From: an uncultured Gammaproteobacteria bacterium
Lineage (GTDB): Bacteria > Patescibacteriota > Patescibacteriia > 2-01-FULL-39-33
Direction: 5' to 3'
Length of the DNA: 64,000 bases
Assembly (NCBI GenBank): GCA_964536975.1
Contig: CAZHYS010000002.1
Span: 12,288-76,287 of the forward strand
The notes under the pieces: generated by a model
The model's database searches: none
What the model was told of the DNA's origin: nothing
The model's input: the letters and a program-made list of their open reading frames with translations, nothing else
Translations under genes and position numbers: made by a program
Shown here: positions 2,600 to 62,318 of the stretch, piece by piece
How positions within the stretch are numbered: position 1 is the first letter of the stretch
How the letters are laid out: each line of letters starts with the position of its first letter

Positions 2600-2745
2600 A
2601 AAAAGTTTATAAAGTCGAATTAATTTGAGCCAAGAGTCCAAAGTCAGCCATGTTTTGACTTTATAAACGGTTCGGCTTCGCTCACCACAAGCTTTACGAA
2701 CTTTATAGACTTTCGACTCCATGGATTTTAGACTATTTTTCTACC
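2600..2745. repeat. Copy of the main interspersed intergenic repeat (R1), MITE-like with inverted arms
   Basis: The core is GGTTCGGCTTCGCTCACCACAAGC at 2670-2694. The arms GAGTCCAAAGTC and GACTTTCGACTC are mutual reverse complements. Confidence 0.5.
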
Positions 2746-8676: not shown

Positions 8677-9076
8677 ATCCCGCCTCGGTCCTGGTTAGTT
8701 ATGGTTGTGTGCCGCCAACTCCCTTTCTTGAAGGTGACTTTGGAGCGGAATAGGAGTGGGAGGAGACACGTTGACCGAGGCGGGAAAGCAAAACTCCCGT
8801 TTTTCCCATCAGAAAGAAGTGAGCCATGGCCGCGGAGAGGTTTCTACTAGTACAGCCATCGCCCAAAAGGCAAGCGATCGCAGAACGCGCAGACAAGGAT
8901 GGGAAAGGGAGTAGTAAAGAACAGTTTATTGTTTGTAATGATAACACAATGCGTGGAAAAAGCAAATACTTTAACTTCTAATCGCGTATCTGCTTGTTGA
9001 TTACAGCTTTACAGATGGTTCGACTCCGCTCACCACAAGCTTTACAAACTTTATAGATTTTCGACTCCATGGGCTT

Positions 9077-10402: not shown

Positions 10403-10690
10403 AATAAATTTCAAATTTGAAATTTTAAATTTCAAAACAATGGTTCGGCTTCGCTCACCACAAGTTTTTAATTTTCAAATCCGCCGCCGCGGATTGTTAA
10501 ATTGTCTAATTGCTATATTGTTTTTGTCTCTATTATGGAGATAAAACCCGACAATTTTACAATTTAACAATGTAACAATTCTTTAATTTGACTTTTTGAC
10601 TTTATAGACTTTAAGAACTCCTGCCTACCGCCTGCCTGCCGGTAGGCAGGGCAGGCAGGTTCAACTTTACGGACTTTATAAACTAAACCA

Positions 10691-12202: not shown

Positions 12203-12324
12203 CGGGCAGGGATTAGTAATCAGCGATTAGCGTTTAGCCTTTAGCGATTTGCGCCCCAGGCGCATCCCCTCCATATAGACTTTACGAACTTTACTGACTT
12301 TATAGACTTTCGACTTTCCGGTTT

Positions 12325-13383: not shown

Positions 13384-14238
13384 CTATCTTTCCTTATAAA
13401 AAACTTTATCCCCGAATCTTACGTCAATATATTCCAATTTATTTTTGTCTTGGACTTTGCCATTCAAGACGAGTAGGAGATTATCCAAAGATAACTTCGG
13501 ATCGCTGTCGGCGGAAAAAAGACCCCGCCAGCCGTCTTTAGTAACCAAAACCACCTCCTCCCCTTCCCCCGCCTCATAACCATAAATCGCCAAGGAAGTT
13601 TTTTTGATTTCTTCATTGAGAGCAATTATAAAAGATGCCGGCTTGCCGCCAAGCGCTTGATCGCCGATGACAATGTCTTTATTGCCGACATTTAAAACCG
13701 GAAACCTGTCCCAATACCTTTCTGCTTCCTCTTGGCTTATTTCCATTGTTGCTCTCCCCTCTTCATCAGCGAAATAAAATTTTTGCTGATTATAAATTAT
13801 CAAAAAACTGACTTTTTCTTCAATATTTATTGATAATTTTTTCCAGCCCTTATCTATCATCAGATTTTTCAAGTTGTAACGCTCATTGATTTTCTCCGCC
13901 AATTGGCCGGTGTCCAAAAACAACAAATTCCGCCGCGGTATCAAATACCAACGCCAACTGTTTAATTCATCTTCTACCAGATTTGAAATTTCTTCCCGAT
14001 TAATCATATCCAAACCGTTTATCTCCACCTCTTTAATCCTGAATAAATCGCTGTATACAACCACATAAACAGCCAGCAACACCGCTAAAACCTTCAAATA
14101 AAAAACAACATCAAATTTCCCGCTTCGATTACGAAAATAAGGATTAACAAATTCTTTGTCTTGGTAATCCTTTTTTATTTTGTGGTGTTGTCGTAAATTT
14201 GGCGAGTCCGTAATCATCAGAAAAATTGCTATTGACAA
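13384..14238 (-). CDS. ftsQ: Cell division protein FtsQ/DivIB-like
   Basis: A single transmembrane helix followed by a POTRA-like segment FRIKEVEINGL. Confidence 0.55.
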   Translation of the reverse strand: MSIAIFLMITDSPNLRQHHKIKKDYQDKEFVNPYFRNRSGKFDVVFYLKVLAVLLAVYVVVYSDLFRIKEVEINGLDMINREEISNLVEDELNSWRWYLIPRRNLLFLDTGQLAEKINERYNLKNLMIDKGWKKLSINIEEKVSFLIIYNQQKFYFADEEGRATMEISQEEAERYWDRFPVLNVGNKDIVIGDQALGGKPASFIIALNEEIKKTSLAIYGYEAGEGEEVVLVTKDGWRGLFSADSDPKLSLDNLLLVLNGKVQDKNKLEYIDVRFGDKVFYKER

Positions 14239-14310
14239 AATTTATAATTTATACTACAATTATATTAGTGTTTCTTTGGCGCAATAAAACAAAAAAACAA
14301 CCGGGCTGCT

Positions 14311-14688
14311 ATGGAAAGGAAGGAGACCATGGCGAAAAAGATGAGCGGCAGAGAAAAAGAAAAAGCAGAGCGGCAACAAGTGGTGGAGGCTATCAAAGCA
14401 TTCGCCGGGCACCTCTTGTCAGAAGAGCCGCCAACCGAGGAGGAAATGGCGCAGCAACTGCCCATACTACTTAAGGAAATTGACCGACTCGGCTGTTACC
14501 CGGAAGCGGCGAATTTTCTGAGCGGCGTTGTCAAGAGGGTGCCGGAAACAACGAAGCGTTCGTTGGTCTATTCGCTTTTTCCCGCACTCAAGGCAGCCAA
14601 GTATGACGGCAATGCTAACACCGACCCTGTTCACGAGGACGTGTTAGACATGTTTGCCACATTAAGCCACGAGGAAAACGCGGCTTAG
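14311..14688 (+). CDS. Hypothetical protein in a GC-rich patch
   Basis: A 125-aa ORF. Local GC is visibly higher than in the flanks. Confidence 0.3.
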   Translation: MERKETMAKKMSGREKEKAERQQVVEAIKAFAGHLLSEEPPTEEEMAQQLPILLKEIDRLGCYPEAANFLSGVVKRVPETTKRSLVYSLFPALKAAKYDGNANTDPVHEDVLDMFATLSHEENAA

Positions 14689-14773
14689 CCCTTTCCGACA
14701 CCGCGCCTGCGCATCGGCGCGTATTCCTCCAGAGAGTCCAAGCAAGGTCACCCGACAGGCCTAGCTTGGACTC

Positions 14774-19169: not shown

Positions 19170-19349
19170 GGGAGTATGTTGATTAATTTCTAATTTTTAA
19201 TTTAAAATTTTAAAACAATTTTTAATGGTTCAGCTTCGTTCACCACAAGTTTTCGATTTAAAATTTACAATGAATTTTCAATTATCAATTTTTAAAATTA
19301 CTGATTACCGCCTTACAGACTTTTGACTTTATGGACTTTAGACTTTTGA

Positions 19350-21776
19350 CTACCTTACTTTTACATTATATTCCTTTTTTAGCTTGTCAACAACTTTATC
19401 GTGGACTTTTTGCGCCTCGGCGAGCTCCAAGGTTTTCTCTTCGTCGCGATAAACCACCCGAATCGCCAAAGCTTTTTTGCCTTCGGGAATGTCTTTGCCT
19501 CTAAAGACAGACAAAAACCTTGCCTCTCTGATGAGCGGATCAACACTCATGGCAGTCTCAACGACATTGCCGTACAACACCTCATCCCCGATCTCCATAG
19601 ACAAGTCCAATTCTATGCCGGGAAACTTCGGCAATGACCGGTAAGTCGGCGAGGGCTTGGCCAGTTTGGCCAGTTTTTCAAAATCAATATCAATTATGCC
19701 GACATCAGATTTAATACCAAATAGATGAAGTGCTTCGCGATCAACAATCCCGATCCGGCCAACACTCTCTTTTCCTTCGCTCGCCAAAATAGAAAAAACG
19801 CTGCCCGGTTGCCAGATCCGACTGCTCTCGCCATCAGCCGCCGCCAGAGAAAAATCCTTGATGTTTAATTTTTCCAACAGAACAGACAAGGCGCCCTTAG
19901 CCGCCAAAAATGCCTCCTCCCCTCCCCGGCCGGCAACAGCCAAACAGAGATTGGTAATTTCATCGGGCAGATCGTTTGGTTTATTCAAATACACCTTGCT
20001 CAATTCAAAAATGCTCATTTCCTTGTAACTGTTCTCATTGTCGGCAATCGCTTGCAAAATTCCGGGCACCAAAGACGTCCGCATATACTCAAAATCAACA
20101 TTGAGCGGATTGGATATTTTGACGTGGTCTTCCACTGACAAGCCGCAATTCTTGATTAATTTTTCCGAAATAAAGCTATAATTATAGTTTTCCGAAAAAC
20201 CCAAGCCGACGATGATGTCTTTGACCTTATCTTCCAGTTGAAAAGGAGAGACGGCGGCAACATCAACGGGAATTTCGCCAGCCGGCAATATCGCCGGCAG
20301 ATTGTGATAGCCGTAGACGCGAGCGATTTCTTCAATCAAATCATGCGGTCCCTCAATGTCACGATCGCGCCAATAAGGCACCTTCACTTTGATCTGTTTG
20401 TCCCCGGCCGCTCTAAATCCCAGATTATCCAAAATTTCTTTTATTCGCGCCGACTTTATTTCTACGCCCAATATTCGCCGAACATCTTCCAGCGCCAGTG
20501 TCAACTCTTTGGCTTTGAATTTGTAATCTTTTTCGTCAAAAATCTTGGACGCGACTTTCCCGCCCGCCAATTCCACTACTAGTTCCACCGCTCGCAATAA
20601 AGCAGGGGTGGTTCCCTCAGGATTAAGACCCTTTTCAAAAAGATTAGAGCTGTCTGAATGCAAATTCAGGACTCTGGCAGTCTTTCTAATGGAAACAGGA
20701 TCAAAGGTGGCCGCCTCCAAAACAATCGTTTTAGTGCCATCTGACACCGCGGATAGCTCTCCGCCCATGATACCGGCGACTGCCGCCGGATTCTTGCCAT
20801 CGGCAATAACCAGATTGCTACTGCCCAATTCATAAGTCTTTCCATCCAGCGCCAAAATTTTTTCACCCGATTTTGCAAGACGGACAATTATCTCCGCCTT
20901 ATTCTCCCTCCCATTTACAAGGGGAGGGACAGGGTGGGGTAATAATTTTTCATAATCAAAAACATGCATCGGCTGACCGAATTCCAACAGAATATAATTG
21001 GTGATATCTACCAGGTTATTAATCGGCCGCAAACCCGACGCCAATAGTCGCTGTTGCAGCCATAGCGGCGAAACATCCACTTTCACGCCGGTCATCACAA
21101 TCGCCTGATAGCGCGGGCAGAGTTTTGGTTCTTTGACTGTGACCTTCAGAGACGGGGCATGCCCGGTCTCTACGGAAGCAATTCTTAGATTCGGCTTTGG
21201 TTCGCGGTATAAAAACTTTTCGCCCATAATCGCCGCCGCCTCACGCGCCAACCCGATGACACTCATGGCATCCGGCCGATTGGAAGTAACCTCAATATCA
21301 AAAATATAATCCTCCACTGGCATCACTTTTTCAAACGGCAGACCGACTTTGAGGTAATCGGGCATAATATAAATACCGGTATGATCGTCGCCGACACCGA
21401 GCTCGCGCTGGCTGCACATCATCCCAAAGCTATCCACCCCGCGGAGTTTGGCTTCTTTCACTTCCATCTCCCCCACTCTGCCGCCGATTAACACCACCGG
21501 CACTTTCTGCCCGGCTTTGATATTCGGCGCGCCGCAAACTATCTGGAGCGGCTCTTTCTCGCCGATATCAACTTTGCAGACATGTAGCTTGTCGGCGTTC
21601 GGATGATTGTTTATTTCCAAAATCTCGCCCACAACCACCTTGGAAAATTTCGCTTCATTGTGATGAATAAAATCAACCGTCGGTCCGCTTTGCGACAGCG
21701 CTTTGGCAAAATCCGCGGCCGATTTTTTCGTCGCGATATGCTCTTTGAGCCAGTTGTAGGATATGTTGAGGTTCAT
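19350..21776 (-). CDS. pheT: Phenylalanyl-tRNA synthetase beta subunit
   Basis: 808 aa with a tRNA-binding N-domain HPNADKLHVCKVDIG. Confidence 0.9.
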   Translation of the reverse strand: MNLNISYNWLKEHIATKKSAADFAKALSQSGPTVDFIHHNEAKFSKVVVGEILEINNHPNADKLHVCKVDIGEKEPLQIVCGAPNIKAGQKVPVVLIGGRVGEMEVKEAKLRGVDSFGMMCSQRELGVGDDHTGIYIMPDYLKVGLPFEKVMPVEDYIFDIEVTSNRPDAMSVIGLAREAAAIMGEKFLYREPKPNLRIASVETGHAPSLKVTVKEPKLCPRYQAIVMTGVKVDVSPLWLQQRLLASGLRPINNLVDITNYILLEFGQPMHVFDYEKLLPHPVPPLVNGRENKAEIIVRLAKSGEKILALDGKTYELGSSNLVIADGKNPAAVAGIMGGELSAVSDGTKTIVLEAATFDPVSIRKTARVLNLHSDSSNLFEKGLNPEGTTPALLRAVELVVELAGGKVASKIFDEKDYKFKAKELTLALEDVRRILGVEIKSARIKEILDNLGFRAAGDKQIKVKVPYWRDRDIEGPHDLIEEIARVYGYHNLPAILPAGEIPVDVAAVSPFQLEDKVKDIIVGLGFSENYNYSFISEKLIKNCGLSVEDHVKISNPLNVDFEYMRTSLVPGILQAIADNENSYKEMSIFELSKVYLNKPNDLPDEITNLCLAVAGRGGEEAFLAAKGALSVLLEKLNIKDFSLAAADGESSRIWQPGSVFSILASEGKESVGRIGIVDREALHLFGIKSDVGIIDIDFEKLAKLAKPSPTYRSLPKFPGIELDLSMEIGDEVLYGNVVETAMSVDPLIREARFLSVFRGKDIPEGKKALAIRVVYRDEEKTLELAEAQKVHDKVVDKLKKEYNVKVR

Positions 21777-23441: not shown

Positions 23442-24183
23442 AAAAAAATAATTCTACTATTGATATTATACCACAAAAATTATCAGCAAAAAAATATCCG
23501 TAATTTGAAATCCCGTCCAGTCCCGAGAGATCGGGAGCGGGACGGGATCCGGAGAAAGTTGATCGCTCTGCGAAAACTTCACTTATAAAAAAGAAAAAAG
23601 ATTTCTTGATTGTGAATGTTGGAAGCAAAACGATATATTCAACTCCTCTCCAAAGATTATAACAATGAAAAAAAATAAAGACAATAAATATTTTTTGTCA
23701 AGAGGAAAAAAATAAAATATTGTGATCGGCAATCAGTAATAATTGTAGAGACGCGATTCATCGCGTCTGGAAGTAATTAGTAACGAGTAACCGGTAACGG
23801 AACTCGTAATAGTGTGTCATCCCGACTGAGGACGCCCCAAGCGGACGAGTGGAGCCTGCCTGCCGGCAGGCAGGAGTCCGTAAAGTCATAATGTCATAAA
23901 GTCCAAGGTCAATCACATTTGACTTTATAGACTTTATGGACTTTTGACTTTTAACCAAGCTGCTCAAACATAAAAGCGGCGCTGACAAGTCAGAACCGCT
24001 TTTATGTTTTTGAAATTTAACACTGCCATTTTGGCAGCTATGGGAAAGAAAAAAAATATTTGAAAGAGCCCTTTCCCGCTTAAACCGGCAATTCAAATTG
24101 CTGGCTTGAGCGGAATGAGGAGATAGATAGTCAAAGAGCGAATCTCTTTTTTCTCTATCTCCTCAAGTTGTTCGGAGGGGGTC

Positions 24184-25351: not shown

Positions 25352-25539
25352 CCAGATGACTGGCGCATCGCCCCTAACAAGAGATTTGAAAGATTGGGTT
25401 TAAATGTACTCTAATATATAATTATATCACATCTAAAAAAGTTTGTCAAGTCTTTTTTGCCTATTTTATTAAAAAATAGCTAAATTTAGCTATTTTATTA
25501 TAATTTTTACTAAAAATATTTGACTTAATCGTTTTGCCA

Positions 25540-25931: not shown

Positions 25932-26116
25932 AACTCAAAAAATCCCCTTAAACAAAAATCCACAATAAAACAGATAAAAATTAAAATAAATTTTCAATAA
26001 TTTAATTTTAAAATTACTAATTATAGACTTTACGAATGGTTCGGCTTCGCTCACCACAAGCTTTATGGACTTTTGACTTTACTGACTTTCGACTTTTAAC
26101 TGTTTAATCTTCCATG

Positions 26117-35116: not shown

Positions 35117-35524
35117 TCCAAACAAGCTGGATGACTGCCCGGGCTCAACCTAAAAAATTAAGCGCGGGAGGAAAGTCCGAACACCCTTTCCGAGCAATCG
35201 GAATGTCATGGCAATGGCTAACGGCCATCCGTTCCGCCGCGAGACGGAATGAGGACCAGTTCCACAGAGACAATACTATCCCGAATCTTTCGGGACAAAG
35301 GTGAAAAGTGTGAAGGTGTTTTAAATTGGGTCAGAGATATCTCCTCAACTTAAAGCTGCTTCACTCGGCCTCTGGCAACAGAGTGCCCGTGGTAAACTCT
35401 GCCTGGTGCAACCCCAAATACAGTCGGGGGCTTGAGCCGGCCAGTAATGACCGGCCCAGATAGATAGTCATCGCTTTGCTCTTATGGCAAAGAACAGAAT
35501 TCGGCTTACAAGCTTGTTGGGACG
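35117..35524 (+). ncRNA. rnpB: RNase P RNA, bacterial type A
   Basis: The P4 strands GGAAAGTCCGAAC and ACAGAATTCGGCTTA are present. The segments GTGCCCGTGGTAAACTCTGCC and GCTTGAGCCGGCC align to E. coli M1 RNA. The P1 ends are complementary and a terminator follows at 35524-35572. Confidence 0.85.
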
Positions 35525-41228: not shown

Positions 41229-41440
41229 GTCATCCCGACTGAAGCGATCCGCCTCGGGCGGAGAGCGAAATGGAGGGATCCCTCCATGCGTTCATCCCGA
41301 GTACTCGGGACTCACTTAGTCGGGATGACACTATAATCAATATCTTTTGGCTATGGCCGCTTTTTTTACCAATTATTGTTTCAAGGTACTTATATATAAT
41401 TATAACACGCCTTAAATGTTTTGTCAATGGCAACCCAATA
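41229..41440. mobile_element. MITE-like palindromic element (R5) plus a shared ~100-bp tail
   Basis: It has terminal inverted repeats GTCATCCCGAC...GTCGGGATGAC and a near-copy at 47204-47450. Confidence 0.5.
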
Positions 41441-41480
41441 TTTTGTTTAAAATAAGGAAAAAAAATAAAAAAATTGTTAA

Positions 41481-41693
41481 ATTGTCCGCCGCGGCGGATT
41501 GTCAAATCGTCATTAACTCCCGAATTTAGAGTCAACACCCAACAATATAACAATATGACAATTTAACAATTGCCGTTTTAAAATTGAAGCATTGAAAACT
41601 TGTGGTGAGCGAAGCCGAACCATTCATTGAAAATTTAAAATTATAAATTAGAAATTTTATTAGAAATTAGACATTAGAAATTAGAAATTTTTC
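41481..41693. repeat. Left inverted repeat flanking murJ; perfect or near-perfect reverse complement of 43576-43789
   Basis: I reverse-complemented one arm and compared it base-for-base by eye with the other over ~213 bp. Each arm contains the R4 palindrome, the R1 core, and TAGAAAT-type heptamer repeats. Confidence 0.7.
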
Positions 41694-41723
41694 TAACTCC
41701 TAATCCCTAAACGCCAATCGCTG

Positions 41724-43445
41724 TTATACCCCTTCTCCTTCCCTCATCACATCTTCGGCCACCGCTGGACTGACCTTCTTGAGTAGTTTCTTCCTCATTG
41801 ACGCGACAAAAATCGCCATCTCTTCCATATTTAGCAGCCAGCCAAACAGCCAATAGCCAAGCATTCCGCCGCCGCCGGCGATTCCGCCTTGCAATAAAAT
41901 TCCCAAAAAAGTATCAGTGGCCACATATACATTAAGCGCCTGAAGCAAGCTGTAAGTAATCAGCCCGGCGGCCAAAGAAGCGAATAAAATCCTAATTGAT
42001 GAATCAACGATTTTCCGGCCGTCCAATCGGCCGATTTTAAACTTAAGCCAAATCATCAGCAGAATCAGATTGACAACCGAAGAAGCGCCAATCGCCGCCG
42101 GCAAAGCAAGAATGCGCAAGTCCCCCACTTCCCACAAATCAGCGATTTTTAGGATAGCGACAGTAAAAAAAGAAAACCAATTATCAAAACTGAATATCCA
42201 GCGGAAAAAGAATAACGCCGCCAAATTCGCCGCCAACGAAAAAACTCCGATATAAAAGGGTGTCCGACTGTCATGCAAGGCATAAAAAGCGCGAATCAGC
42301 AGCGGTAAGGCGCTCTGGGCAAACAAGCTCAAGGCAAAAATTGCCAGACTGGCGGCGGTCAACCGCGTGTCCAGCCAGTCAAACTGGCCGGCACCGAGAA
42401 TAACTCTGACGATTTGCGCCCTTAGCACGTAAAACAGAATTGACACCGGCACGATCAAAAATAGCACCTGACGGAAAGTGACAGAAAAAGTTTCAACGAA
42501 TCCGGTTAAATTCTTTTTTGCCGCAAGCAGAGACAGAGCCGGCAAAGCCGCCACCGCGAAAGAAACGCCAAAAATTCCCAAGGGAAAACTTTGCAAATTA
42601 TTGGCCAAATTAAAAATCGCCAATGAGCCGACGGCCAAAGTGGAAGCGACCATGGTTACTGTCAAAATATTTACCTGATTGATTACCAGCGTCAAGGTGC
42701 GCGGGATCATCATCCGGCCGACCAAGCGGACGTTTTTGTCTTTTAACCCAAAAATCGGCGCGTAGCGATAGCCGGAGGAAAAAACTGTCGGCAATTGGAC
42801 CAACAGATGCATTGCCGCGCCCAAAACCACGCCCCAGGCCAAACCATAAAGTCCCCACTCGGGAACAAAATAAATCGCGCCGATGATAATGCCGATGTTA
42901 TAAAAAATCGGCGCGAGCGAATAAGCGAAAAATTGTTTGAATGATTGGAGAATTGAGCCAATCACCGCCGAAATGCCCAAAATCAGCGGGCTCAAAAACA
43001 TTATCCGTGACAATTGCGTCACCAGCGCCAATTTTTCCTCATCAAATCCGGGCGTAATTAGTGGCATTATTTGAGGAGCAAAAACAAAAAAAATTCCGCA
43101 AATTATTACCAGCCCGGCAATCACCAAATTCAAAATGCTATTTATCAGCCGCCAAGCTTCTTTTTTCTTGCCGCTTAGAAACGAGCTATTCTCTATCAGT
43201 CCGGTAAACACCGGGATTAGGCCGGCAGAAATCGCGCCCAAAACCAAAAGATTATACACCAAATCTGGCAGACGAAATGCCGCGTAATAAATATCCAGTT
43301 CGTTGCCCGCGCCAAAATGCGACGCCAGAATCCGGTCGCGAAAAATGCCGAGAAACCGGCTGACCAAAGACAGGGCGCCGATGATGATCGCCGCCGAAGT
43401 AATTGTCCTGGCTTGGGAATTAATAATTTTTTTGAACCCAAACAT
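41724..43445 (-). CDS. murJ: Lipid II flippase MurJ
   Basis: 573 aa, a multi-pass MviN/MurJ family protein with the N-terminus RFLGIFRDRILASHFGAG. Confidence 0.85.
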   Translation of the reverse strand: MFGFKKIINSQARTITSAAIIIGALSLVSRFLGIFRDRILASHFGAGNELDIYYAAFRLPDLVYNLLVLGAISAGLIPVFTGLIENSSFLSGKKKEAWRLINSILNLVIAGLVIICGIFFVFAPQIMPLITPGFDEEKLALVTQLSRIMFLSPLILGISAVIGSILQSFKQFFAYSLAPIFYNIGIIIGAIYFVPEWGLYGLAWGVVLGAAMHLLVQLPTVFSSGYRYAPIFGLKDKNVRLVGRMMIPRTLTLVINQVNILTVTMVASTLAVGSLAIFNLANNLQSFPLGIFGVSFAVAALPALSLLAAKKNLTGFVETFSVTFRQVLFLIVPVSILFYVLRAQIVRVILGAGQFDWLDTRLTAASLAIFALSLFAQSALPLLIRAFYALHDSRTPFYIGVFSLAANLAALFFFRWIFSFDNWFSFFTVAILKIADLWEVGDLRILALPAAIGASSVVNLILLMIWLKFKIGRLDGRKIVDSSIRILFASLAAGLITYSLLQALNVYVATDTFLGILLQGGIAGGGGMLGYWLFGWLLNMEEMAIFVASMRKKLLKKVSPAVAEDVMREGEGV

Positions 43446-43575
43446 TGTCTGGCTGTATAAAAACCGTTAACTTAATTTTGATTTGGCGATTAGAGCGACC
43501 ACCACACCGACAAAAATAATGCCAAAAATTACGTAGGTCATGGGCTAGGAATTAGGAGTTAGGGATTAGGGATTG

Positions 43576-43789
43576 GAAAAATTTCTAATTTCTAATGTCT
43601 AATTTCTAATAAAATTTCTAATTTATAATTTTAAATTTTCAATGAATGGTTCGGCTTCGCTCACCACAAGTTTTCAATGCTTCAATTTTAAAACGGCAAT
43701 TGTTAAATTGTCATATTGTTATATTGTTGGGTGTTGACTCTAAATTCGGGAGTTAATGACGATTTGACAATCCGCCGCGGCGGACAATT
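43576..43789. repeat. Right inverted repeat flanking murJ
   Basis: See the left arm at 41481-41693. Confidence 0.7.
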
Positions 43790-43827
43790 AGTCAATTTGA
43801 CTTTACAGACTTTATAAACTTTTGACT

Positions 43828-45888
43828 TTATGAACTCATTCTCACATCCACGATCTTCGCGCCTTTGCCTTTGACGCCGACCATCACCGGATTGAAATCC
43901 ATTTCCTTCACCTGCGGATAGCGCTGGGCAAAATCGCCAGTCTTTACCAATATCTCCGCCACTGCCTCAATATCCAGCGGTTTTTGGCCGCGCGCGCCGG
44001 CAAACATTTTGGCAATTTTTAGATCACCGATCATCGCTCTGGCGGCCGCTTTATCAAACGGCGCGATTCTAAACGCGACATCCTTGAATATCTCGGCGTA
44101 AATCCCGCCCGCGCCGACCATTACCAGCGGGCCGAATTGCGCGTCGCGCTTCATACCGACAATTACCTCAAACCCTTTGACCATCTCCCCCACCAAAAAC
44201 CCGTCCAGCGCCGGAATCTTTTTTTTCATCTCGGCGATGGCCGCTGTCATCTCCTCAGTGTTTTTTATGTTTAATTTCACTCCGCCGACATCAGACTTGT
44301 GAGTGATTTTTTCCGACACGATCTTTATCGCCACCGGCCAGCCGATTTTTTCCGCCGCGCCAATCGCCGCTTTTCCATCGGCAGCAAACTCGGCTCGGTG
44401 CAAATTGAATCCCAAAGGCAATAATAATTTTCTAGCGTCAATTTCCGTCAACACCGCTTGATTGAAAATCTTATTTTCCGACGGTTTGATTTTTGATTTT
44501 GCGATTGTTAGCGGCGCCATCCTCATCCGGCTATACTGCCACATCCGGCCGAGCGTTTCCACTGCCTGATTGGGAAAATTATATACCGGCAAAGAATATT
44601 TTTGAAAAATATCATAATGGCCGGTGATCTTGGCTTCACCCATGAAACACGCCAATACCGTCTTGGTCGTCTTTTTGGCCAGGCGGCCGACAATCTCCGC
44701 GGTCTTGGCCACATCCGTCATCTTCTGCGGGGTTAATGCCACTATGACCGCGTCAACATTTTTGTCCTTCAAAGCCTCGCCCAGCGCCCATTCATAGCGA
44801 TCAGCGCCGGCATCGCCCAGAACATCAATGGGATTTTTGACGCTGGCCGCCGGGGGCAATTTTGATTTTATTTTTTTGGCCGCGGACGCGGACAACTCCG
44901 CCAATTCCAATCCGTGCGCCGACAGCAAATCCGTCAGCAATACGCCCGGCCCGCCGGCGTTGGTGATAATAGCCACGCGCTTGCCCTTTGGCAGCGCCTG
45001 CCAAGAAAAGCCTTTGGCCAAATTGAAAAAATCTTCCAAATCCCTCGCCTCAATCAATCCTGATTGGGCGAAGGCCGTACTATAAGCTTGCGCTGAACCG
45101 GCCAATGAGCCAGTATGCGAGGACACTGCCTGGCTGCCCTTCTCTGTTTTGCCGGCTTTTAGCACAACCACTGGCTTTTGGCCGGAGACGCGACTCGCCG
45201 TTTCCATGAACCGCCGGCCATCCCTGATATCTTCAAGGTAAGATATGATCACTTTGACTTTATCGTCGCTTCCGCAATATTCCAATAAATCATTTTCGTC
45301 AATGTCTAATTTGTTTCCCATACTGACAAAATAAGCCAAGCCGACTTTTTGCGCCTCCGCCAAGTCCAAAAATGCCGTACCCAAAGCGCCCGATTGGGAA
45401 AGAAAGGCGACATTGCCCCGCGTCGGCGTGCCGGGCGCGAAAGAAGCGTTGACCGGCAAAAGAGCGGAAATAAAGCCAAGACAGTTTGGTCCCAAAATTC
45501 TGATCTGATATTTTCCGGCAATTTTTTTGATTTCATTTTCCAGCGCCACCCCCGCTTCGCCTAATTCGCGGAAGCCGGCGGAAATAATGACGATGTTTTG
45601 GCATTTCTTCTTGCCACATTCTTCCACTGCTTCGGCGACAAATTGAGCCGGAATGACGATTATCGCCAAATCCACCGGCCCAGGCACTTTGGCAATGGAC
45701 GGATAAGCCGAAAGACCGGCAATGTTTTTTTCATCCAAATTGATCGGATAGATTTTGCCGGCAAAACTGTTTTTGAGATTGACCACAATATCATTGCCGA
45801 CCTTGCCCGGTTTGGCCGACGCGCCAATGACCGCGACTGATTTGGGATTGAAAAAAGGTTTGAGATTGGTTTTATTTTTAATTGGCAT
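43828..45888 (-). CDS. ADP-forming acetyl-CoA synthetase (NDP-forming acyl-CoA synthetase, fused alpha/beta)
   Basis: A CoA-binding N-domain VAVIGASAKPGKVGN and an ATP-grasp C-domain. Confidence 0.8.
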   Translation of the reverse strand: MPIKNKTNLKPFFNPKSVAVIGASAKPGKVGNDIVVNLKNSFAGKIYPINLDEKNIAGLSAYPSIAKVPGPVDLAIIVIPAQFVAEAVEECGKKKCQNIVIISAGFRELGEAGVALENEIKKIAGKYQIRILGPNCLGFISALLPVNASFAPGTPTRGNVAFLSQSGALGTAFLDLAEAQKVGLAYFVSMGNKLDIDENDLLEYCGSDDKVKVIISYLEDIRDGRRFMETASRVSGQKPVVVLKAGKTEKGSQAVSSHTGSLAGSAQAYSTAFAQSGLIEARDLEDFFNLAKGFSWQALPKGKRVAIITNAGGPGVLLTDLLSAHGLELAELSASAAKKIKSKLPPAASVKNPIDVLGDAGADRYEWALGEALKDKNVDAVIVALTPQKMTDVAKTAEIVGRLAKKTTKTVLACFMGEAKITGHYDIFQKYSLPVYNFPNQAVETLGRMWQYSRMRMAPLTIAKSKIKPSENKIFNQAVLTEIDARKLLLPLGFNLHRAEFAADGKAAIGAAEKIGWPVAIKIVSEKITHKSDVGGVKLNIKNTEEMTAAIAEMKKKIPALDGFLVGEMVKGFEVIVGMKRDAQFGPLVMVGAGGIYAEIFKDVAFRIAPFDKAAARAMIGDLKIAKMFAGARGQKPLDIEAVAEILVKTGDFAQRYPQVKEMDFNPVMVGVKGKGAKIVDVRMSS

Positions 45889-46041
45889 ACCGCATTGACT
45901 TTATAAATGGTTCGACTTCGCTCACCACAAGCTTTACGAACTTTATGACTTTTGACTTTATGAACTATCTCCATTCTACCACAAATTTTAAGATAAAAAA
46001 ACGCCCGCGCTTCTCTTCCGTGAGAAACGCGGGGTAATTGT

Positions 46042-47203: not shown

Positions 47204-47450
47204 TCATCCCGACTAAGTGAAGCCCTCCCGTCCCGAGTGCCCGGGACGGGAGGGACGAACGCATGGAGGGATCCCTCCACGGAGTTTACCCTGAGCGTAG
47301 TCGAAGGGGTCGGGATGACACGGGAGGACTTTATCAAGATAATATTTCAGTATCTTTTGGCTATGGCCGTTTTTTTGCCAATAATTGCTTGTAAGGTACT
47401 AATATATAATTATAGCATATCTAAAATATTTTGTCAATAGTTAAATCAGC
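47204..47450. mobile_element. Second copy of the MITE-like R5 element with an inverted core
   Basis: It has the same terminal repeats and tail as 41229-41440. The central segment is in the opposite orientation. Confidence 0.5.
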
Positions 47451-53905: not shown

Positions 53906-54086
53906 AGTTTTGCTTAGTTTATTATTTAAATTTATTAACGACCTTTAAATTAGTCAGGAGTCTAAAGTCATAGAGTCTATAAAGTCAAAATGCAACTGAC
54001 TTTGGACTCCATGGCTTTCGACTTTATGGACTTTACAGACTTTTGACTTTATAGACTTTAGGCTTGTTTATATTATAACACACTTT

Positions 54087-60737: not shown

Positions 60738-61367
60738 TCATCTTATGTCCACTGCGCCCGAACGGAGCACTTCCGGCTCACTGGAAATTAGTGACGCCAA
60801 TGTTGACGGCGCCGATTCTTGCCGGCCAATGTCAACATAAAAATCAACGCTATTGCCAAAATAATCTTTAGCTTCTGTGGCAGTCATAGCTGGCGGCAAG
60901 CCCTCGGGATTGGCGCTTGGCGCGACCAGTGGTCCGGTCTGCCGGACAAGATCGCGGAGCTCATCATTGTCCGGCAGACGGAATGCCAGACTGTTTGTAC
61001 CGCGATGAAGATAGGCAAATTTTTCTTCCGCGCAAGCAAAAATAATGCTAATCTTTCCCGGCCAATATCGCTGACAAAAATTTTTCTGCTTATCTGACAA
61101 AACTATACCGAATAAATCCAAGCCGCCGATATCGGCAATCAAAATTATCAGCGGCTTGTCCGGCCGCCTTTTTCTGACTTGATAAATTCGCTCCACTGTA
61201 TCCGGATTTAACGCCCGGCCGACCAAGCCATAAATCGTATCCGTCGGCAACACACCGATGCCGCCGGATTTTAAAATGTTAATTGTTTTTTGAGTAAAAT
61301 TTTTCTTCATAAGCACGATTTTATTTATTCCTTCCTCTTCCCAAGTGAAGAAACGGAGAGGGGTCAT
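60738..61367 (-). CDS. tsaC: L-threonylcarbamoyladenylate synthase, TsaC/YrdC family
   Basis: VLPTDTIYGLVG...PLIIL. Confidence 0.8.
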   Translation of the reverse strand: MTPLRFFTWEEEGINKIVLMKKNFTQKTINILKSGGIGVLPTDTIYGLVGRALNPDTVERIYQVRKRRPDKPLIILIADIGGLDLFGIVLSDKQKNFCQRYWPGKISIIFACAEEKFAYLHRGTNSLAFRLPDNDELRDLVRQTGPLVAPSANPEGLPPAMTATEAKDYFGNSVDFYVDIGRQESAPSTLASLISSEPEVLRSGAVDIR

Positions 61368-61425
61368 GCCTTTTATTCCCTCCCCTTGTCTGAAGGGGAG
61401 GGATAGGGAGGGGTCTAAAACCCAA

Positions 61426-62124
61426 TTATTTATTAAAAAATTTACCCAACTTCTCCACTCTTATCGCGTCCTTCGCCTCAAACTCCCCCACTCTGCTTCG
61501 TTCCAAATCAGACAAATAACCGCCGACACCCAGCTCCTGGCCAATATCGCGAGCCAAAGCGCGAATGTATGTCCCCTTGCCACAAATGACTTTTATCCGC
61601 AAATCAGGATATTTATATTTTAAAATTTTTATTTCCCTGATTTCCACCGGTCGAGGCAAAAGTTCCACCTCCTTGCCGGCGCGAGCGGATTTATACGCTC
61701 GCCTCCCCTTCACTTTTATCGCGCTAAACTGCGGCGGAATCTGATTGATCTGCCCGACGAATTGTTTTATTATTTTTTCAATTTTAATTTTACTGACGAT
61801 TCGACTCCGCTCACCACAAGCTTTACGGACTTTTGACTTTATGGACTTTATAGACTTAATTCCTTCTTCATCATCAGTCGTACTCGTCATGCCCAATCTA
61901 ATGTCAGCAATGTATTCTTTTTCCTGGCCGACGATTTCCGACAGTTGCCTGGTTGCTTCGCGGCCGACGCCAATCACCAAAACGCCGCTGGCCAAAGGAT
62001 CCAGAGTGCCGGCATGACCGACTTTTTTGACTCCGGACAATTTTCTCACTCTGGCGACAATATCAAAAGAGGTCGGCCCCTTCGGCTTGTAAATACCAAA
62101 GATATTTTTAGTTTTGACATCCAT
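61426..62124 (-). CDS. truB: tRNA pseudouridine(55) synthase carrying an in-frame repeat insertion
   Basis: KPKGPTSFDIV...HAGTLDPLASGVL...TTDD. The start at 62124 (MDVKTK) is preferred over the upstream ATG at 62160 in the ORF track. Confidence 0.85.
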   Translation of the reverse strand: MDVKTKNIFGIYKPKGPTSFDIVARVRKLSGVKKVGHAGTLDPLASGVLVIGVGREATRQLSEIVGQEKEYIADIRLGMTSTTDDEEGIKSIKSIKSKVRKACGERSRIVSKIKIEKIIKQFVGQINQIPPQFSAIKVKGRRAYKSARAGKEVELLPRPVEIREIKILKYKYPDLRIKVICGKGTYIRALARDIGQELGVGGYLSDLERSRVGEFEAKDAIRVEKLGKFFNK

Positions 62125-62318
62125 ATTAAATTTGCTGCGCTCTAATATTCTTGCTGCCACCGCTCAGGGCAAGCTCCTTCGGCTTGTAAATACCAAAGAT
62201 ATTTTTAGTTTTGACATCCATATTAAATTTGCTGCGCTCTAATATTCTTGCTGCCACCGCTCAGGGCAAGCTCCTTCGGCTTGTAAATACCAAAGATATT
62301 TTTAGTTTCTTTCTCCAT
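62086..62318. repeat. 97-bp tandem direct repeat, two perfect units plus a diverged partial third
   Basis: A repeat marker recurs at 62087, 62184 and 62281, giving a period of 97. Each unit contains the truB start codon and its first 15 codons. Confidence 0.8.

What the first reader, a model, noticed from the sequence alone, without database searches (positions are those of the whole stretch)
61796..61860. In-frame insertion of the main intergenic repeat (R1) inside the truB coding sequence
The DNA at 61796-61860 is the R1 repeat found in about ten intergenic sites: GATTCGACTCCGCTCACCACAAGCTTTACGGACTTTTGACTTTATGGACTTTATAGAC. It sits between the conserved TruB motifs TTDDEEG and FVGQINQIPPQFSA. 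On the minus strand it is translated without a stop as GIKSIKSIKSKVRKACGERSRI. The linker is lengthened relative to E. coli TruB, from ~17 to ~29 aa. This parallels Rickettsia palindromic elements, which insert in-frame into genes.
Basis: partly seen in the sequence, partly recalled or inferred. Interest (0 to 1): 0.7.

Follow-up and report, generated by a model that had tools for sequence, protein, structure and literature searches.

The report
Tiny repeat translated inside truB
A housekeeping tRNA-modifying enzyme gene (truB) of a Patescibacteria genome carries, in frame, a copy of the genome's intergenic repeat, and the 24-base core of that repeat turns out to be present in many unrelated bacterial phyla, where it also sits in frame inside real proteins.

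Summary
truB (61426-62124, minus strand) contains about 70-76 nt (61782-61857) that align at 75-81% with four intergenic repeat copies. The 21-nt core is identical to the copy at 9019.

The segment has two layers. One is an in-frame array of 9-nt units (AAAGTCNNN in mRNA sense). The other is one 24-nt unit (61797-61820, CGATTCGACTCCGCTCACCACAAG), which adds ACGERSRI. Excising the unit rejoins the array and keeps the frame. None of 119 other TruBs has that peptide.

The insert lies in the only low-confidence internal stretch of a confident AlphaFold model. That loop varies in length across Patescibacteria TruBs and hosts other small repeats in other lineages.

The unexpected part is that TGGTTCGRCTYCGCTCACCACAAG occurs in at least 113 genomes from many phyla. 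It sits at palindrome centres, inside short tandem arrays, nested in itself, and in frame in real proteins (SMC, Fic, VWA, E2 and others). A Fic filled/empty pair differs by exactly 24 nt, and the empty site already mimics the unit's 5' end.

The closest analogues are Rickettsia palindromic elements (by outcome) and cyanobacterial small dispersed repeats (by anatomy). It is a member of neither. The insertion mechanism is inferred, not shown.

The parts
61426..62124 (-). truB coding sequence (232 aa, ATG at 62124, stop at 61426-61428). It is a short, PUA-less TruB typical of Patescibacteria.
   Evidence: ORF. Pfam TruB_N full length plus TruB_C_2. Identical to database protein P0001. 49 invariant family columns retained, including GTLDP. 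AF2 pLDDT 86 with best PDB matches to TruB-RNA complexes.
61782..61857 (+). Repeat-derived segment inside truB, a composite of 9-mer units and the 24-nt unit. The repeat's sense is on the + strand, antisense to truB. It is translated as (I)KSIKSIKSKVRKACGERSRIVSK.
   Evidence: Local blastn against the rest of the window gives 79%/86 nt to 26006-26089 (E 1e-14), 81%/74 nt to 45895-45966, 78%/69 nt to 9008-9076 and 76%/78 nt to 2653-2728.
61797..61820 (+). The 24-nt unit CGATTCGACTCCGCTCACCACAAG (family consensus TGGTTCGRCTYCGCTCACCACAAG). It encodes ACGERSRI on the truB strand.
   Evidence: The 21-nt core is identical to the intergenic copy at 9019-9039. Virtual excision removes 24 nt, keeps the ORF open and rejoins AAAG|TC of the array.
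61821..61857 (+). Array of 9-nt units (CTTTATGGA consensus on +, AAAGTCNNN in mRNA sense), 4.3 copies, translated as IKSIKSIKSKVRK.
   Evidence: Tandem Repeats Finder: period 9, 4.3 copies, score 46. The same units occur in intergenic arrays.
61788..61796 (+). One further 9-mer unit (TTTTACTGA) on the other side of the 24-nt unit, translated as part of VSK.
   Evidence: In register with CTTTACAGA / CTTTACGAA / CTTTATAAA, which precede the unit in the intergenic copies.
2668..2691 (+). Intergenic 24-nt unit copy within GACTTTNNN arrays.
9016..9039 (+). Intergenic unit copy whose core is identical to the truB copy.
10441..10464 (+). Intergenic unit copy within AATTTYAAA-type arrays.
19226..19249 (+). 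Degenerate intergenic unit copy (TGGTTCAGCTTCGTTCACCACAAG).
26037..26060 (+). Intergenic unit copy. With its flanks it gives the best overall match to the truB segment.
41599..41622 (-). Intergenic unit copy inside the left arm of the 240-nt inverted repeat that flanks murJ.
43647..43670 (+). Intergenic unit copy inside the right arm of the same inverted repeat.
45908..45931 (+). Intergenic unit copy. Its 3' array flank is the most similar to that of truB (0.82).
54005..54071 (+). Example of a unit-free GACTTTNNN array. Others are at 10590-10624, 12278-12313, 19310-19351, 23915-23956 and 43796-43836.

Best explanation
The truB segment is a genuine, translated copy of the genome's small-repeat system, and it has two layers.

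Layer 1 is an in-frame tandem array of 9-nt units (AAAGTCNNN in mRNA sense, three codons each). It is seeded at the conserved G-I-K-S codons (GGA ATT AAG TCN) of a surface loop.

Layer 2 is one 24-nt (8-codon) unit inserted between two array units. It belongs to a family whose sequence is conserved across many prokaryotic phyla.

The insertion is harmless for four reasons:
- 9 and 24 are multiples of three.
- Five of the unit's six reading frames have no stop codon.
- The host loop is disordered.
- The host loop is already length-variable.

TruB keeps all its catalytic motifs and presumably stays active.

How the unit gets in is inferred. It is copied into sites that can form hairpins or slipped structures (palindrome centres, tandem arrays, its own centre), or into sites that already resemble its 5' end. 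The route is either template switching or an unidentified trans-acting enzyme. It leaves no terminal inverted repeats and no regular target duplication.

Shown: homology of the truB segment to the intergenic copies, the exact 24-nt indel, the in-frame reading, the loop location and the pan-phylum distribution. Inferred: the order of events (array first, then unit), the insertion mechanism and retained enzyme activity.
For: Repeat homology and statistics.
Only in-gene copy in the window.
Unit absent from 119 TruB homologues, and excision restores both array and frame.
Loop hypervariable (modal 21-22 aa, window 33 aa, 21 of 109 at 27 aa or more).
AAAGTC arrays at the same loop in L118, L119 and L002.
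Other small repeats at the same loop in L126 (matches its own intergenic array), L127 and L128.
AF2 low confidence confined to the insert, and a gap against solved TruBs.
Unit in at least 113 genomes of many phyla.
Excision restores palindromes (12/120 vs 2.4% control) or tandem arrays (9/120 vs 0.35%), and the unit nests in itself.
Unit in frame in Pfam-verified proteins in sense and antisense frames.
Fic filled/empty alleles differ by exactly 8 aa / 24 nt, with the empty site ATGGTTCGA mimicking the unit's 5' end.
Right-flank similarity to the unit's 5' end across genomes, p about 2e-8.
Against: - No empty truB allele from a close relative was found. The best homologue is 70% identical and the metagenome scan returned 0 hits, so the truB event is reconstructed, not observed.
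- The truB flanks do not resemble the unit's 5' end, unlike the Fic case.
- The truB copy shares array irregularities with particular intergenic copies. That fits en-bloc copying or gene conversion as well as it fits unit insertion into a pre-existing array.
- No mobilising enzyme was identified near any copy.
- The window's 8/9 orientation bias is not reproduced across genomes.
- The sequence comes from a metagenome assembly, and read-level support was not available.
Confidence: 0.75

Rival explanations
1. En-bloc gene conversion or homeologous recombination. truB already had an AAAGTC-type array in this loop, and a stretch of an intergenic composite (array + unit + array) was copied into it through array homology. 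No dedicated insertion of the 24-nt unit took place.
For: AAAGTC arrays occur at the same loop in other TruB lineages without the unit. The truB copy shares the irregular 9-7-9 unit pattern with the 26040 copy and has 0.76-0.82 flank identity to 26040 and 45911. The pairs 2671/9019 and 41599/43650 are clearly en-bloc copies.
Against: Across other genomes the same 24-nt unit sits in arrays with unrelated unit sequences, in palindromes and in plain coding DNA. So the unit can move on its own. The flank similarity lies in low-complexity DNA and is not exclusive, since the array at 19317 matches just as well.
Confidence: 0.3
2. The segment is ancestral truB coding sequence, and the intergenic copies derive from it.
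For: The array part (IKS..., KSKV, HKV) is seen in several other TruBs at this site, so part of the segment may be old coding sequence.
Against: The unit peptide is absent from all 119 homologues. The unit is present in at least 113 genomes of unrelated phyla, mostly outside truB. The closest TruBs lack both layers.
Confidence: 0.03
3. Assembly artefact. The repeat was spliced into truB by the metagenome assembler.
For: The source is a MAG contig. A perfect 97-nt x 2.4 tandem repeat lies 220 nt away over the truB start and could itself be an assembly loop.
Against: Both junctions are in frame. The copy is diverged from every other copy (75-81% identity, with unique CGA instead of TGG), so it cannot be a collapsed read-through of another locus. 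Analogous in-gene composites exist in independent assemblies, including a complete genome (L072, L082). The same 232-aa protein is deposited independently in NCBI (P0001).
Confidence: 0.03
4. The insert is a selected functional module, either a basic RNA-binding extension of TruB or a cis-regulatory DNA/RNA element embedded in the gene.
For: The encoded peptide is very basic (K/R-rich) and sits in an RNA-binding enzyme. The unit's sequence is conserved across phyla, which implies recognition by something.
Against: There is no promoter- or terminator-like site in the insert and no Rfam family over the unit. The peptide is predicted to be disordered. Different lineages carry unrelated inserts at the same loop, which suggests tolerance rather than a specific function. 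In-protein copies in the Fic family decay.
Confidence: 0.07

Closest known systems
Rickettsia palindromic elements (RPEs)
   Same: A dispersed repeat occurs both between genes and in frame inside unrelated housekeeping genes. It is translated as an extra peptide at positions compatible with the protein fold (description in PMC10969869).
   Different: RPEs are about 150 bp, palindromic, encode a conserved peptide of tens of residues and are restricted to Rickettsia (PMC10969869). Here the mobile core is 24 nt (8 aa), is not a long palindrome, sits inside 9-nt tandem arrays, and occurs across many phyla.
Small dispersed repeats (SDRs) of Nostocaceae (Elhai et al. 2008, Genome Res 18:1484)
   Same: From my memory of that paper's abstract, SDRs are elements of 21-27 nt that are embedded in tandem heptamer arrays, nested inside copies of themselves, share a small predicted hairpin and are proposed to be mobile. 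All of these are seen for this 24-nt unit. Citing papers describe SDRs as about 20 bp and possibly mobile (PMC2884548, PMC3116915).
   Different: SDRs were reported only in Nostocaceae (PMC5861425). This unit is found in Patescibacteria, Omnitrophota, Bacteroidota, Planctomycetota, Chloroflexota, Acidobacteriota, Fibrobacterota, Brocadia and a DPANN archaeon. It is frequently read in frame in verified proteins. Sequence relatedness to SDR1-8 could not be checked because the paper is not held.
REP / REPIN elements mobilised by RAYT transposases
   Same: Both are short, non-autonomous, hairpin-associated repeats without terminal inverted repeats or target duplications, and both occur in high copy number between genes (PMC3116915, PMC3733652).
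   Different: REPs are defined by a GTAG or CGTC tag plus a conserved palindrome, and they are lineage-specific and extragenic (PMC3733652). Here the conserved part is the loop-like 24-mer and the flanking stems vary. No tag and no RAYT gene were seen, and many copies are intragenic.
Short tandemly repeated repetitive (STRR) heptamer arrays of cyanobacteria
   Same: Both are genome-wide arrays of 7-9-nt units, like the GACTTTNNN and AATTTYAAA arrays of this window. This comparison rests on my own knowledge.
   Different: This is a different phylum with different unit sequences. Here the array is also translated inside a conserved enzyme.

Membership tests
TruB (tRNA pseudouridine-55 synthase), the host gene | Full-length TruB_N catalytic domain with the GTLDP catalytic aspartate motif and the family's invariant residues. 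| tested here: met
   Pfam TruB_N 1-149/149, E 2.9e-48. 49 invariant columns retained, including G39-T40-L41-D42-P43. Foldseek top hits are TruB-RNA complexes with TMq 0.82.
Rickettsia palindromic element (RPE) | About 100-150 bp palindromic element encoding a conserved peptide, in Rickettsia genomes. | tested here: not met
   The repeat-like span is 69-76 nt with a 24-nt conserved core. The flanks are direct 9-mer arrays, not inverted arms. The host is Patescibacteria.
Rickettsia palindromic element (RPE) | In-frame insertion into unrelated protein-coding genes at structurally tolerant positions. | tested here: met
   truB. In other genomes: SMC, Fic, VWA, multicopper oxidase, beta-propeller, E2 acyltransferase and histidine kinase.
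MITE | Terminal inverted repeats and target-site duplications of fixed length. | tested here: not met
   The unit has no TIRs. Its flanks are either continuous arrays or the two halves of a palindrome, with no regular duplication. Only the Fic case shows a 4-nt TCGA on both sides.
REP/REPIN | GTAG or CGTC tag next to a conserved imperfect palindrome, plus a RAYT gene in the genome. | tested here: not met
   There is no such tag or conserved palindrome in the unit. No transposase was found among genes next to the copies. The whole genome was not available, so RAYT absence is untested.
Small dispersed repeats (SDR) | Length of 21-27 nt. | tested here: met
   24-nt unit, defined by array and palindrome restoration and by an exact 24-nt indel.
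Small dispersed repeats (SDR) | Embedded in short tandem repeat arrays and nested within copies of itself. | tested here: met
   Arrays in L072, L081, L082, L115, L117 and all window copies. Nested copies in L056, L083, L097, L069 and L107.
Small dispersed repeats (SDR) | Sequence identity to one of the published SDR1-SDR8 families, and occurrence in Nostocaceae. | not testable with these tools
   The defining paper is not held.
Small dispersed repeats (SDR) | Demonstrated mobility through filled and empty orthologous sites. | tested here: met
   Fic family: P0124 vs P0155 (86% identical, a single 8-aa / 24-nt gap) and P0123 vs P0149. This was not shown for truB itself.

The most novel reading that the evidence does not exclude
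TGGTTCGRCTYCGCTCACCACAAG is an ultra-small (24-nt) insertion element, either mobile or copied by templated insertion. It is shared by bacteria of many phyla and at least one DPANN archaeon.

It invades hairpin tips, short tandem arrays, its own centre and coding sequences that mimic its 5' end. Because it is 8 codons long and open in five of six frames, it repeatedly adds peptides such as GSTSLTTS, LVVSEVEP or CGERSRT to protein loops.

The truB insert would then be one visible case of a general and so far undescribed way in which protein loops are remodelled.
Probability: 0.5. Interest if true: 0.85.

Novelty: new variant of a known kind. Interest (0 to 1): 0.68.

Why it matters
For this genome, the result shows that a core tRNA-modification enzyme tolerates translated selfish or repeat DNA. 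It also marks a TruB loop as a general acceptor of insertions, which is useful for annotation and for engineering.

More broadly, the repeat's 24-nt core is conserved across phyla and is found in frame in verified proteins, with exact 24-nt filled/empty alleles. If that holds up, it extends 'very small mobile elements', so far known only from Nostocaceae, to much of the prokaryotic world. It would also identify a recurrent source of 8-residue indels in proteins.

It would explain many odd low-complexity 'phrases' in metagenome-derived protein sets, and it gives a concrete sequence with which to look for the responsible enzyme or replication mechanism.

Tried and rejected
1. Exact look-up of the window's TruB contig: not on record.
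2. Metagenome scan for conspecific filled or empty truB alleles using conserved flanks and a variable gap: 0 hits.
3. Rfam at gathering thresholds on the window and on 18 unit-bearing loci: nothing overlaps the unit.
4. Literature searches on the DNA and peptide strings and on CPR repeat topics: only irrelevant primer hits, or nothing. The key SDR paper could not be read.
5. Replication-strand hypothesis. The window shows 8/9 units on the C-rich strand, but orientation does not follow local GC skew across 105 other copies (p = 0.24). Rejected as a general rule.
6. tRNA/tmRNA 3'-end origin of the unit (GGTTCGACTCC resembles a T-arm). The window has no tRNA genes, and the flanking bases do not complete a T-stem. 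Left untested.
7. Internal promoter or terminator created by the insert: none found.
8. A transposase next to the copies: none. The gene bracketed by 240-nt inverted repeats is MurJ.
9. Phage carriage of the unit: only 6 viral contigs of 2.9 million.
10. P0044, the largest TruB insert: DNA not available.

Full report
**1. Observation**

It lies in a minus-strand ORF whose most likely start is the ATG at 62124 (232 aa, stop at 61426-61428). The protein is a TruB:
- Pfam TruB_N covers 1-149/149 at E 2.9e-48, with TruB_C_2 also matched.
- It is identical to a deposited 232-aa protein from a 99-kb NCBI contig (P0001).
- Its homologues are Patescibacteria (CPR) TruBs.

Codon by codon, the region reads TTDDEEG-IKSIKSIKSKVRKACGERSRIVSKIKIEKIIKQ-FVGQINQIPP.

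**2. Is it the intergenic repeat?**

The 58-mer as a whole is unique in the window, but its parts are not.
- The 18-mer GACTCCGCTCACCACAAG has 8 matches with at most 3 mismatches, against 0.04 expected. With a looser pattern there are nine copies of a 21-nt core.
- The GGACTTTTGACTTTATGGACTTT part matches five other arrays.
- Local blastn of the truB linker DNA against the rest of the window gives 79% over 86 nt (26006-26089, E 1e-14), 81% over 74 nt (45895-45966), 78% over 69 nt (9008-9076, core 21/21) and 76% over 78 nt (2653-2728).
- On a crude ORF map (71 ORFs, 87% coding), all eight other cores are intergenic. truB holds the only copy inside a well-supported gene.

**3. Anatomy**

Aligning all copies shows a 24-nt unit, TGGTTCGRCTYCGCTCACCACAAG. 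It is always embedded between short direct repeats: RACTTTNNN 9-mers at 2671, 9019, 26040, 45911 and truB, and AATTTYAAA-type units at 10444, 19229 and 43650/41599.

In truB the unit is CGATTCGACTCCGCTCACCACAAG at 61797-61820. Removing exactly these 24 nt rejoins AAAG|TC, leaves a continuous array and keeps the ORF open (…KSKVRK|VSKIKIEK…). TRF independently reports a period-9 array of 4.3 copies at 61821-61857.

So the insert has two layers. The 9-mer array is read as (KSI)n/KSKVRK, and the 8-codon unit is read as ACGERSRI.

**4. Comparison with orthologues**

Among 109 scorable homologues, the linker between TxDxEG and FxGxIxQxPP is 21-22 aa in 67. It is 33 aa in the window, and 27 aa or more in 21.

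The unit peptide (CGERS, GERSR) occurs in no other TruB. The closest relatives (P0002-P0006, 65-70% identity) have short, unrelated linkers, and P0002's linker has no repeat match in its own 14.7-kb contig.

The array layer is different. AAAGTC-type units, in the sense strand and at the same loop, occur in three other lineages:
- L118/P0018: GTC(CATAAAGTC)x3.
- L119/P0022: array units at this loop, even at the modal linker length.
- L002/P0007: array units interrupted by a different G+C-rich palindrome.

The 20-kb neighbourhoods of these genes are poor in such arrays. The conserved G-I-K-S codons (GGA ATT AAG TCN) look like the seed.

Other lineages carry other small repeats at the same loop:
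- L126: an 8-mer array that recurs in its own contig's intergenic DNA (E 7e-7).
- L127: two CCCCGAC…GTCGGGG hairpins.
- L128: GCC-TTCGAGTTGCCGGA-GGC-AAG, an element with the unit's architecture, nested in a palindrome.

This TruB loop is a general acceptor of small repeats.

**5. Structure**

AlphaFold2 on the 40-sequence alignment gives pLDDT 86 and pTM 0.82. The only internal stretches below 50 are residues 86-98 and 103-105, which is the insert. The following helix (112-120) is confident.

The model matches TruB-RNA complexes 1R3E and 1K8W at TMq 0.82 and 0.81. HMMER alignments to T. maritima and M. tuberculosis TruB leave gaps of 12 and 8+2 residues exactly at the insert.

All 49 invariant family columns, including GTLDP, are intact. 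I could not compute distances to the bound RNA because no coordinates were available in the sandbox. The insert is distinct from the thumb-loop region that follows QIPPQFSA (this last point is from my own knowledge of TruB).

**6. The unit is not specific to this genome**

The hosts include:
- Omnitrophota
- Bacteroidota
- Planctomycetota
- Chloroflexota
- Acidobacteriota
- Fibrobacter
- Ignavibacteria
- Gammaproteobacteria
- several CPR classes
- a complete Brocadia genome
- an isolate
- a single-cell genome
- a Woesearchaeota MAG

About one chance hit is expected in that collection, by my calculation from pattern probability times 1.2e12 positions.

Across 120 copies:
- TGG precedes the 21-mer in 91.
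- Excision restores a palindrome with a stem of at least 8 bp in 12, against 2.4% in shuffled-pair controls. An example is L109, GGGCGAGGCA|TGCCTCGCCC.
- Excision restores a continuous tandem array in 9, against 0.35% in controls. Examples are L115 (TTATCAA), L081, L082, L072 and L117.
- The unit is found nested in itself or in the sister element CCCTTCGACT^TCGCTCAGGGCAAG, and also in tandem.

Five of its six frames are stop-free. Sixty of 113 copies lie in open frames of at least 150 aa, mostly read as GS(T/A)(S/P)LTTS.

Pfam confirms real hosts. In the sense frame these are two SMCs, a beta-propeller, VIT-VWA, a multicopper oxidase, DUF4172-Fic and RHS. In antisense frames they are:
- an E2 acyltransferase linker
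- a Brocadia DUF7948/SBBP protein
- a histidine kinase
- an IS91-type transposase
- a glycosyltransferase

The E2 and Brocadia cases are array-plus-unit composites inside genes, the same arrangement as in truB.

**7. Filled and empty sites**

Among 120 homologues of the Omnitrophota Fic protein, 32 have all eight insert columns and most of the rest have none.
- P0124 (WFNG-STSLTTGQ-SMDMD) and P0155 (WFNG-SMDMD) are 86% identical with a single 8-aa gap.
- A second subclade shows the same (P0123 vs P0149).
- There are decayed and doubled copies.

At the DNA level, the empty allele reads TGGTTTAATGGTTCGATGGATATG. The filled alleles have 24 extra nt at that point. In P0121 the sequence immediately after the unit (TGATTCGAAGG) is the old target. 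The empty target therefore already mimics the unit's 5' end (ATGGTTCGA).

Genome-wide, the right flank resembles the unit's 5' end in 7 of 111 copies (at least 7/10 matches), against 0.25% in controls (p about 2e-8). The left flank shows nothing comparable.

**8. Mechanism**

*Shown:*
- The unit is a discrete 24-nt indel.
- It sits at hairpin tips, in arrays, in itself and next to self-like sequence.
- It has no TIRs and no regular TSD.

*Inferred:* copying by template switching at stalled or slipped structures, with microhomology, or action of an unidentified trans-acting ssDNA enzyme.

The strong cross-phylum conservation of the sequence argues that something recognises it. However, no candidate gene lies near the window's copies, the unit is rare in viral contigs, and orientation does not track GC skew across genomes, although 8 of 9 window copies share one strand.

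For truB specifically, I cannot separate unit insertion into a pre-existing array from en-bloc conversion from an intergenic composite. The truB flanks are most like those of the 26040 and 45911 copies.

**9. Comparison with known systems**

The outcome is the same as for Rickettsia palindromic elements, which are about 150 bp, palindromic, encode a conserved peptide and are often in frame (PMC10969869). Size, structure and taxon all differ, so this is not a member.

The anatomy matches what I remember of the small dispersed repeats of Nostoc (Elhai et al. 2008): 21-27 nt, in heptamer arrays, nested. These are cited as about 20 bp and possibly mobile (PMC2884548, PMC3116915), and as absent outside Nostocaceae (PMC5861425). 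That paper could not be read here, so sequence relatedness is untested.

REP/REPIN and MITE criteria are not met. No Rfam family covers the unit, and no paper in the library contains its DNA or peptide strings.

**10. Verdict**

- The insert is two-layered.
- The array layer may be older than the unit, or recurrent.
- The unit is a pan-prokaryotic 24-mer.

As a single in-frame repeat insertion it would be a modest curiosity. The cross-phylum behaviour of its core is what makes it worth following up.

Noticed in passing
window 62079-62308: A perfect 97-nt tandem repeat (2.4 copies, 100% match) covers the truB start codon and first 13 codons. It creates two upstream decoy starts that each run into a stop. 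Each unit ends in CCGCTCAGGGCAAG, the 3' half of the sister element. It could be a real duplication or an assembly loop.
   Followed up: partly
window 41471-41710 and 43559-43798: 240-nt inverted repeats (98% complementary), each carrying a 24-nt unit plus arrays, bracket a single gene (41724-43445) that is MurJ (lipid II flippase), not a transposase. This may be an invertible or recombination-prone segment.
   Followed up: partly
window 61323-61414 and 20899-20940: Another repeat family made of GGGAGGG/CCCTCCC-rich palindromes (for example TTATTCCCTCCCCTTGTCTGAAGGGGAGGGATAGGGAGGGGT) sits directly downstream of truB and at one other site.
   Followed up: no
window 18655, 29747, 29785, 38002, 43771: The short palindrome TCCGCCGCGGCGGA recurs five times, often next to the arrays. 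Its positions look terminator-like.
   Followed up: no
window 41337-41428 and 47347-47438; also 25411-25449: A conserved 92-nt intergenic block (78% identity) contains, on the minus strand, a near-consensus TTGACA-N17-TATAAT promoter.
   Followed up: no
window 35119-35524: Bacterial RNase P RNA class A (178.8 bits), the only Rfam hit in the window. ARAGORN finds no tRNA genes in the 64 kb.
   Followed up: yes
window 60738-61367 (minus strand), directly downstream of truB: The 209-aa ORF has a Sua5/YciO/YrdC-like sequence (…LPTDTIYGL…). In several relatives (P0010-P0013, P0020, P0025, P0037) TruB is fused to a PF01300 domain, which suggests a conserved truB-yrdC linkage or fusion in this group.
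   Followed up: no
window 23915-23956: A GACTTTNNN array lies inside a 112-aa ORF (23758-24096, minus strand) with no Pfam match. Whether this is a second translated array or a spurious ORF is undecided.
   Followed up: partly
L094 (Woesearchaeota MAG) and L098:6677-7546: The 21-nt core also occurs in a DPANN archaeal contig. In one Chitinispirillaceae genome it lies inside an IS91-family transposase gene, read in the same antisense frame as in truB.
   Followed up: no
L002:14148-14188: In the genome of the TruB relative P0007, an (AAAGTCAG)n 8-mer array lies inside the MurG gene (13648-14709). This is another candidate for a translated array.
   Followed up: no
L011, L024, L090, L099, L015: In Fibrobacter and Harrisonbacteria the unit is inserted in the loop of another cross-phylum hairpin, GATTCCCGCC…GCGGGAATGAC. 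This suggests a wider set of conserved small hairpin 'phrases' that host one another.
   Followed up: no
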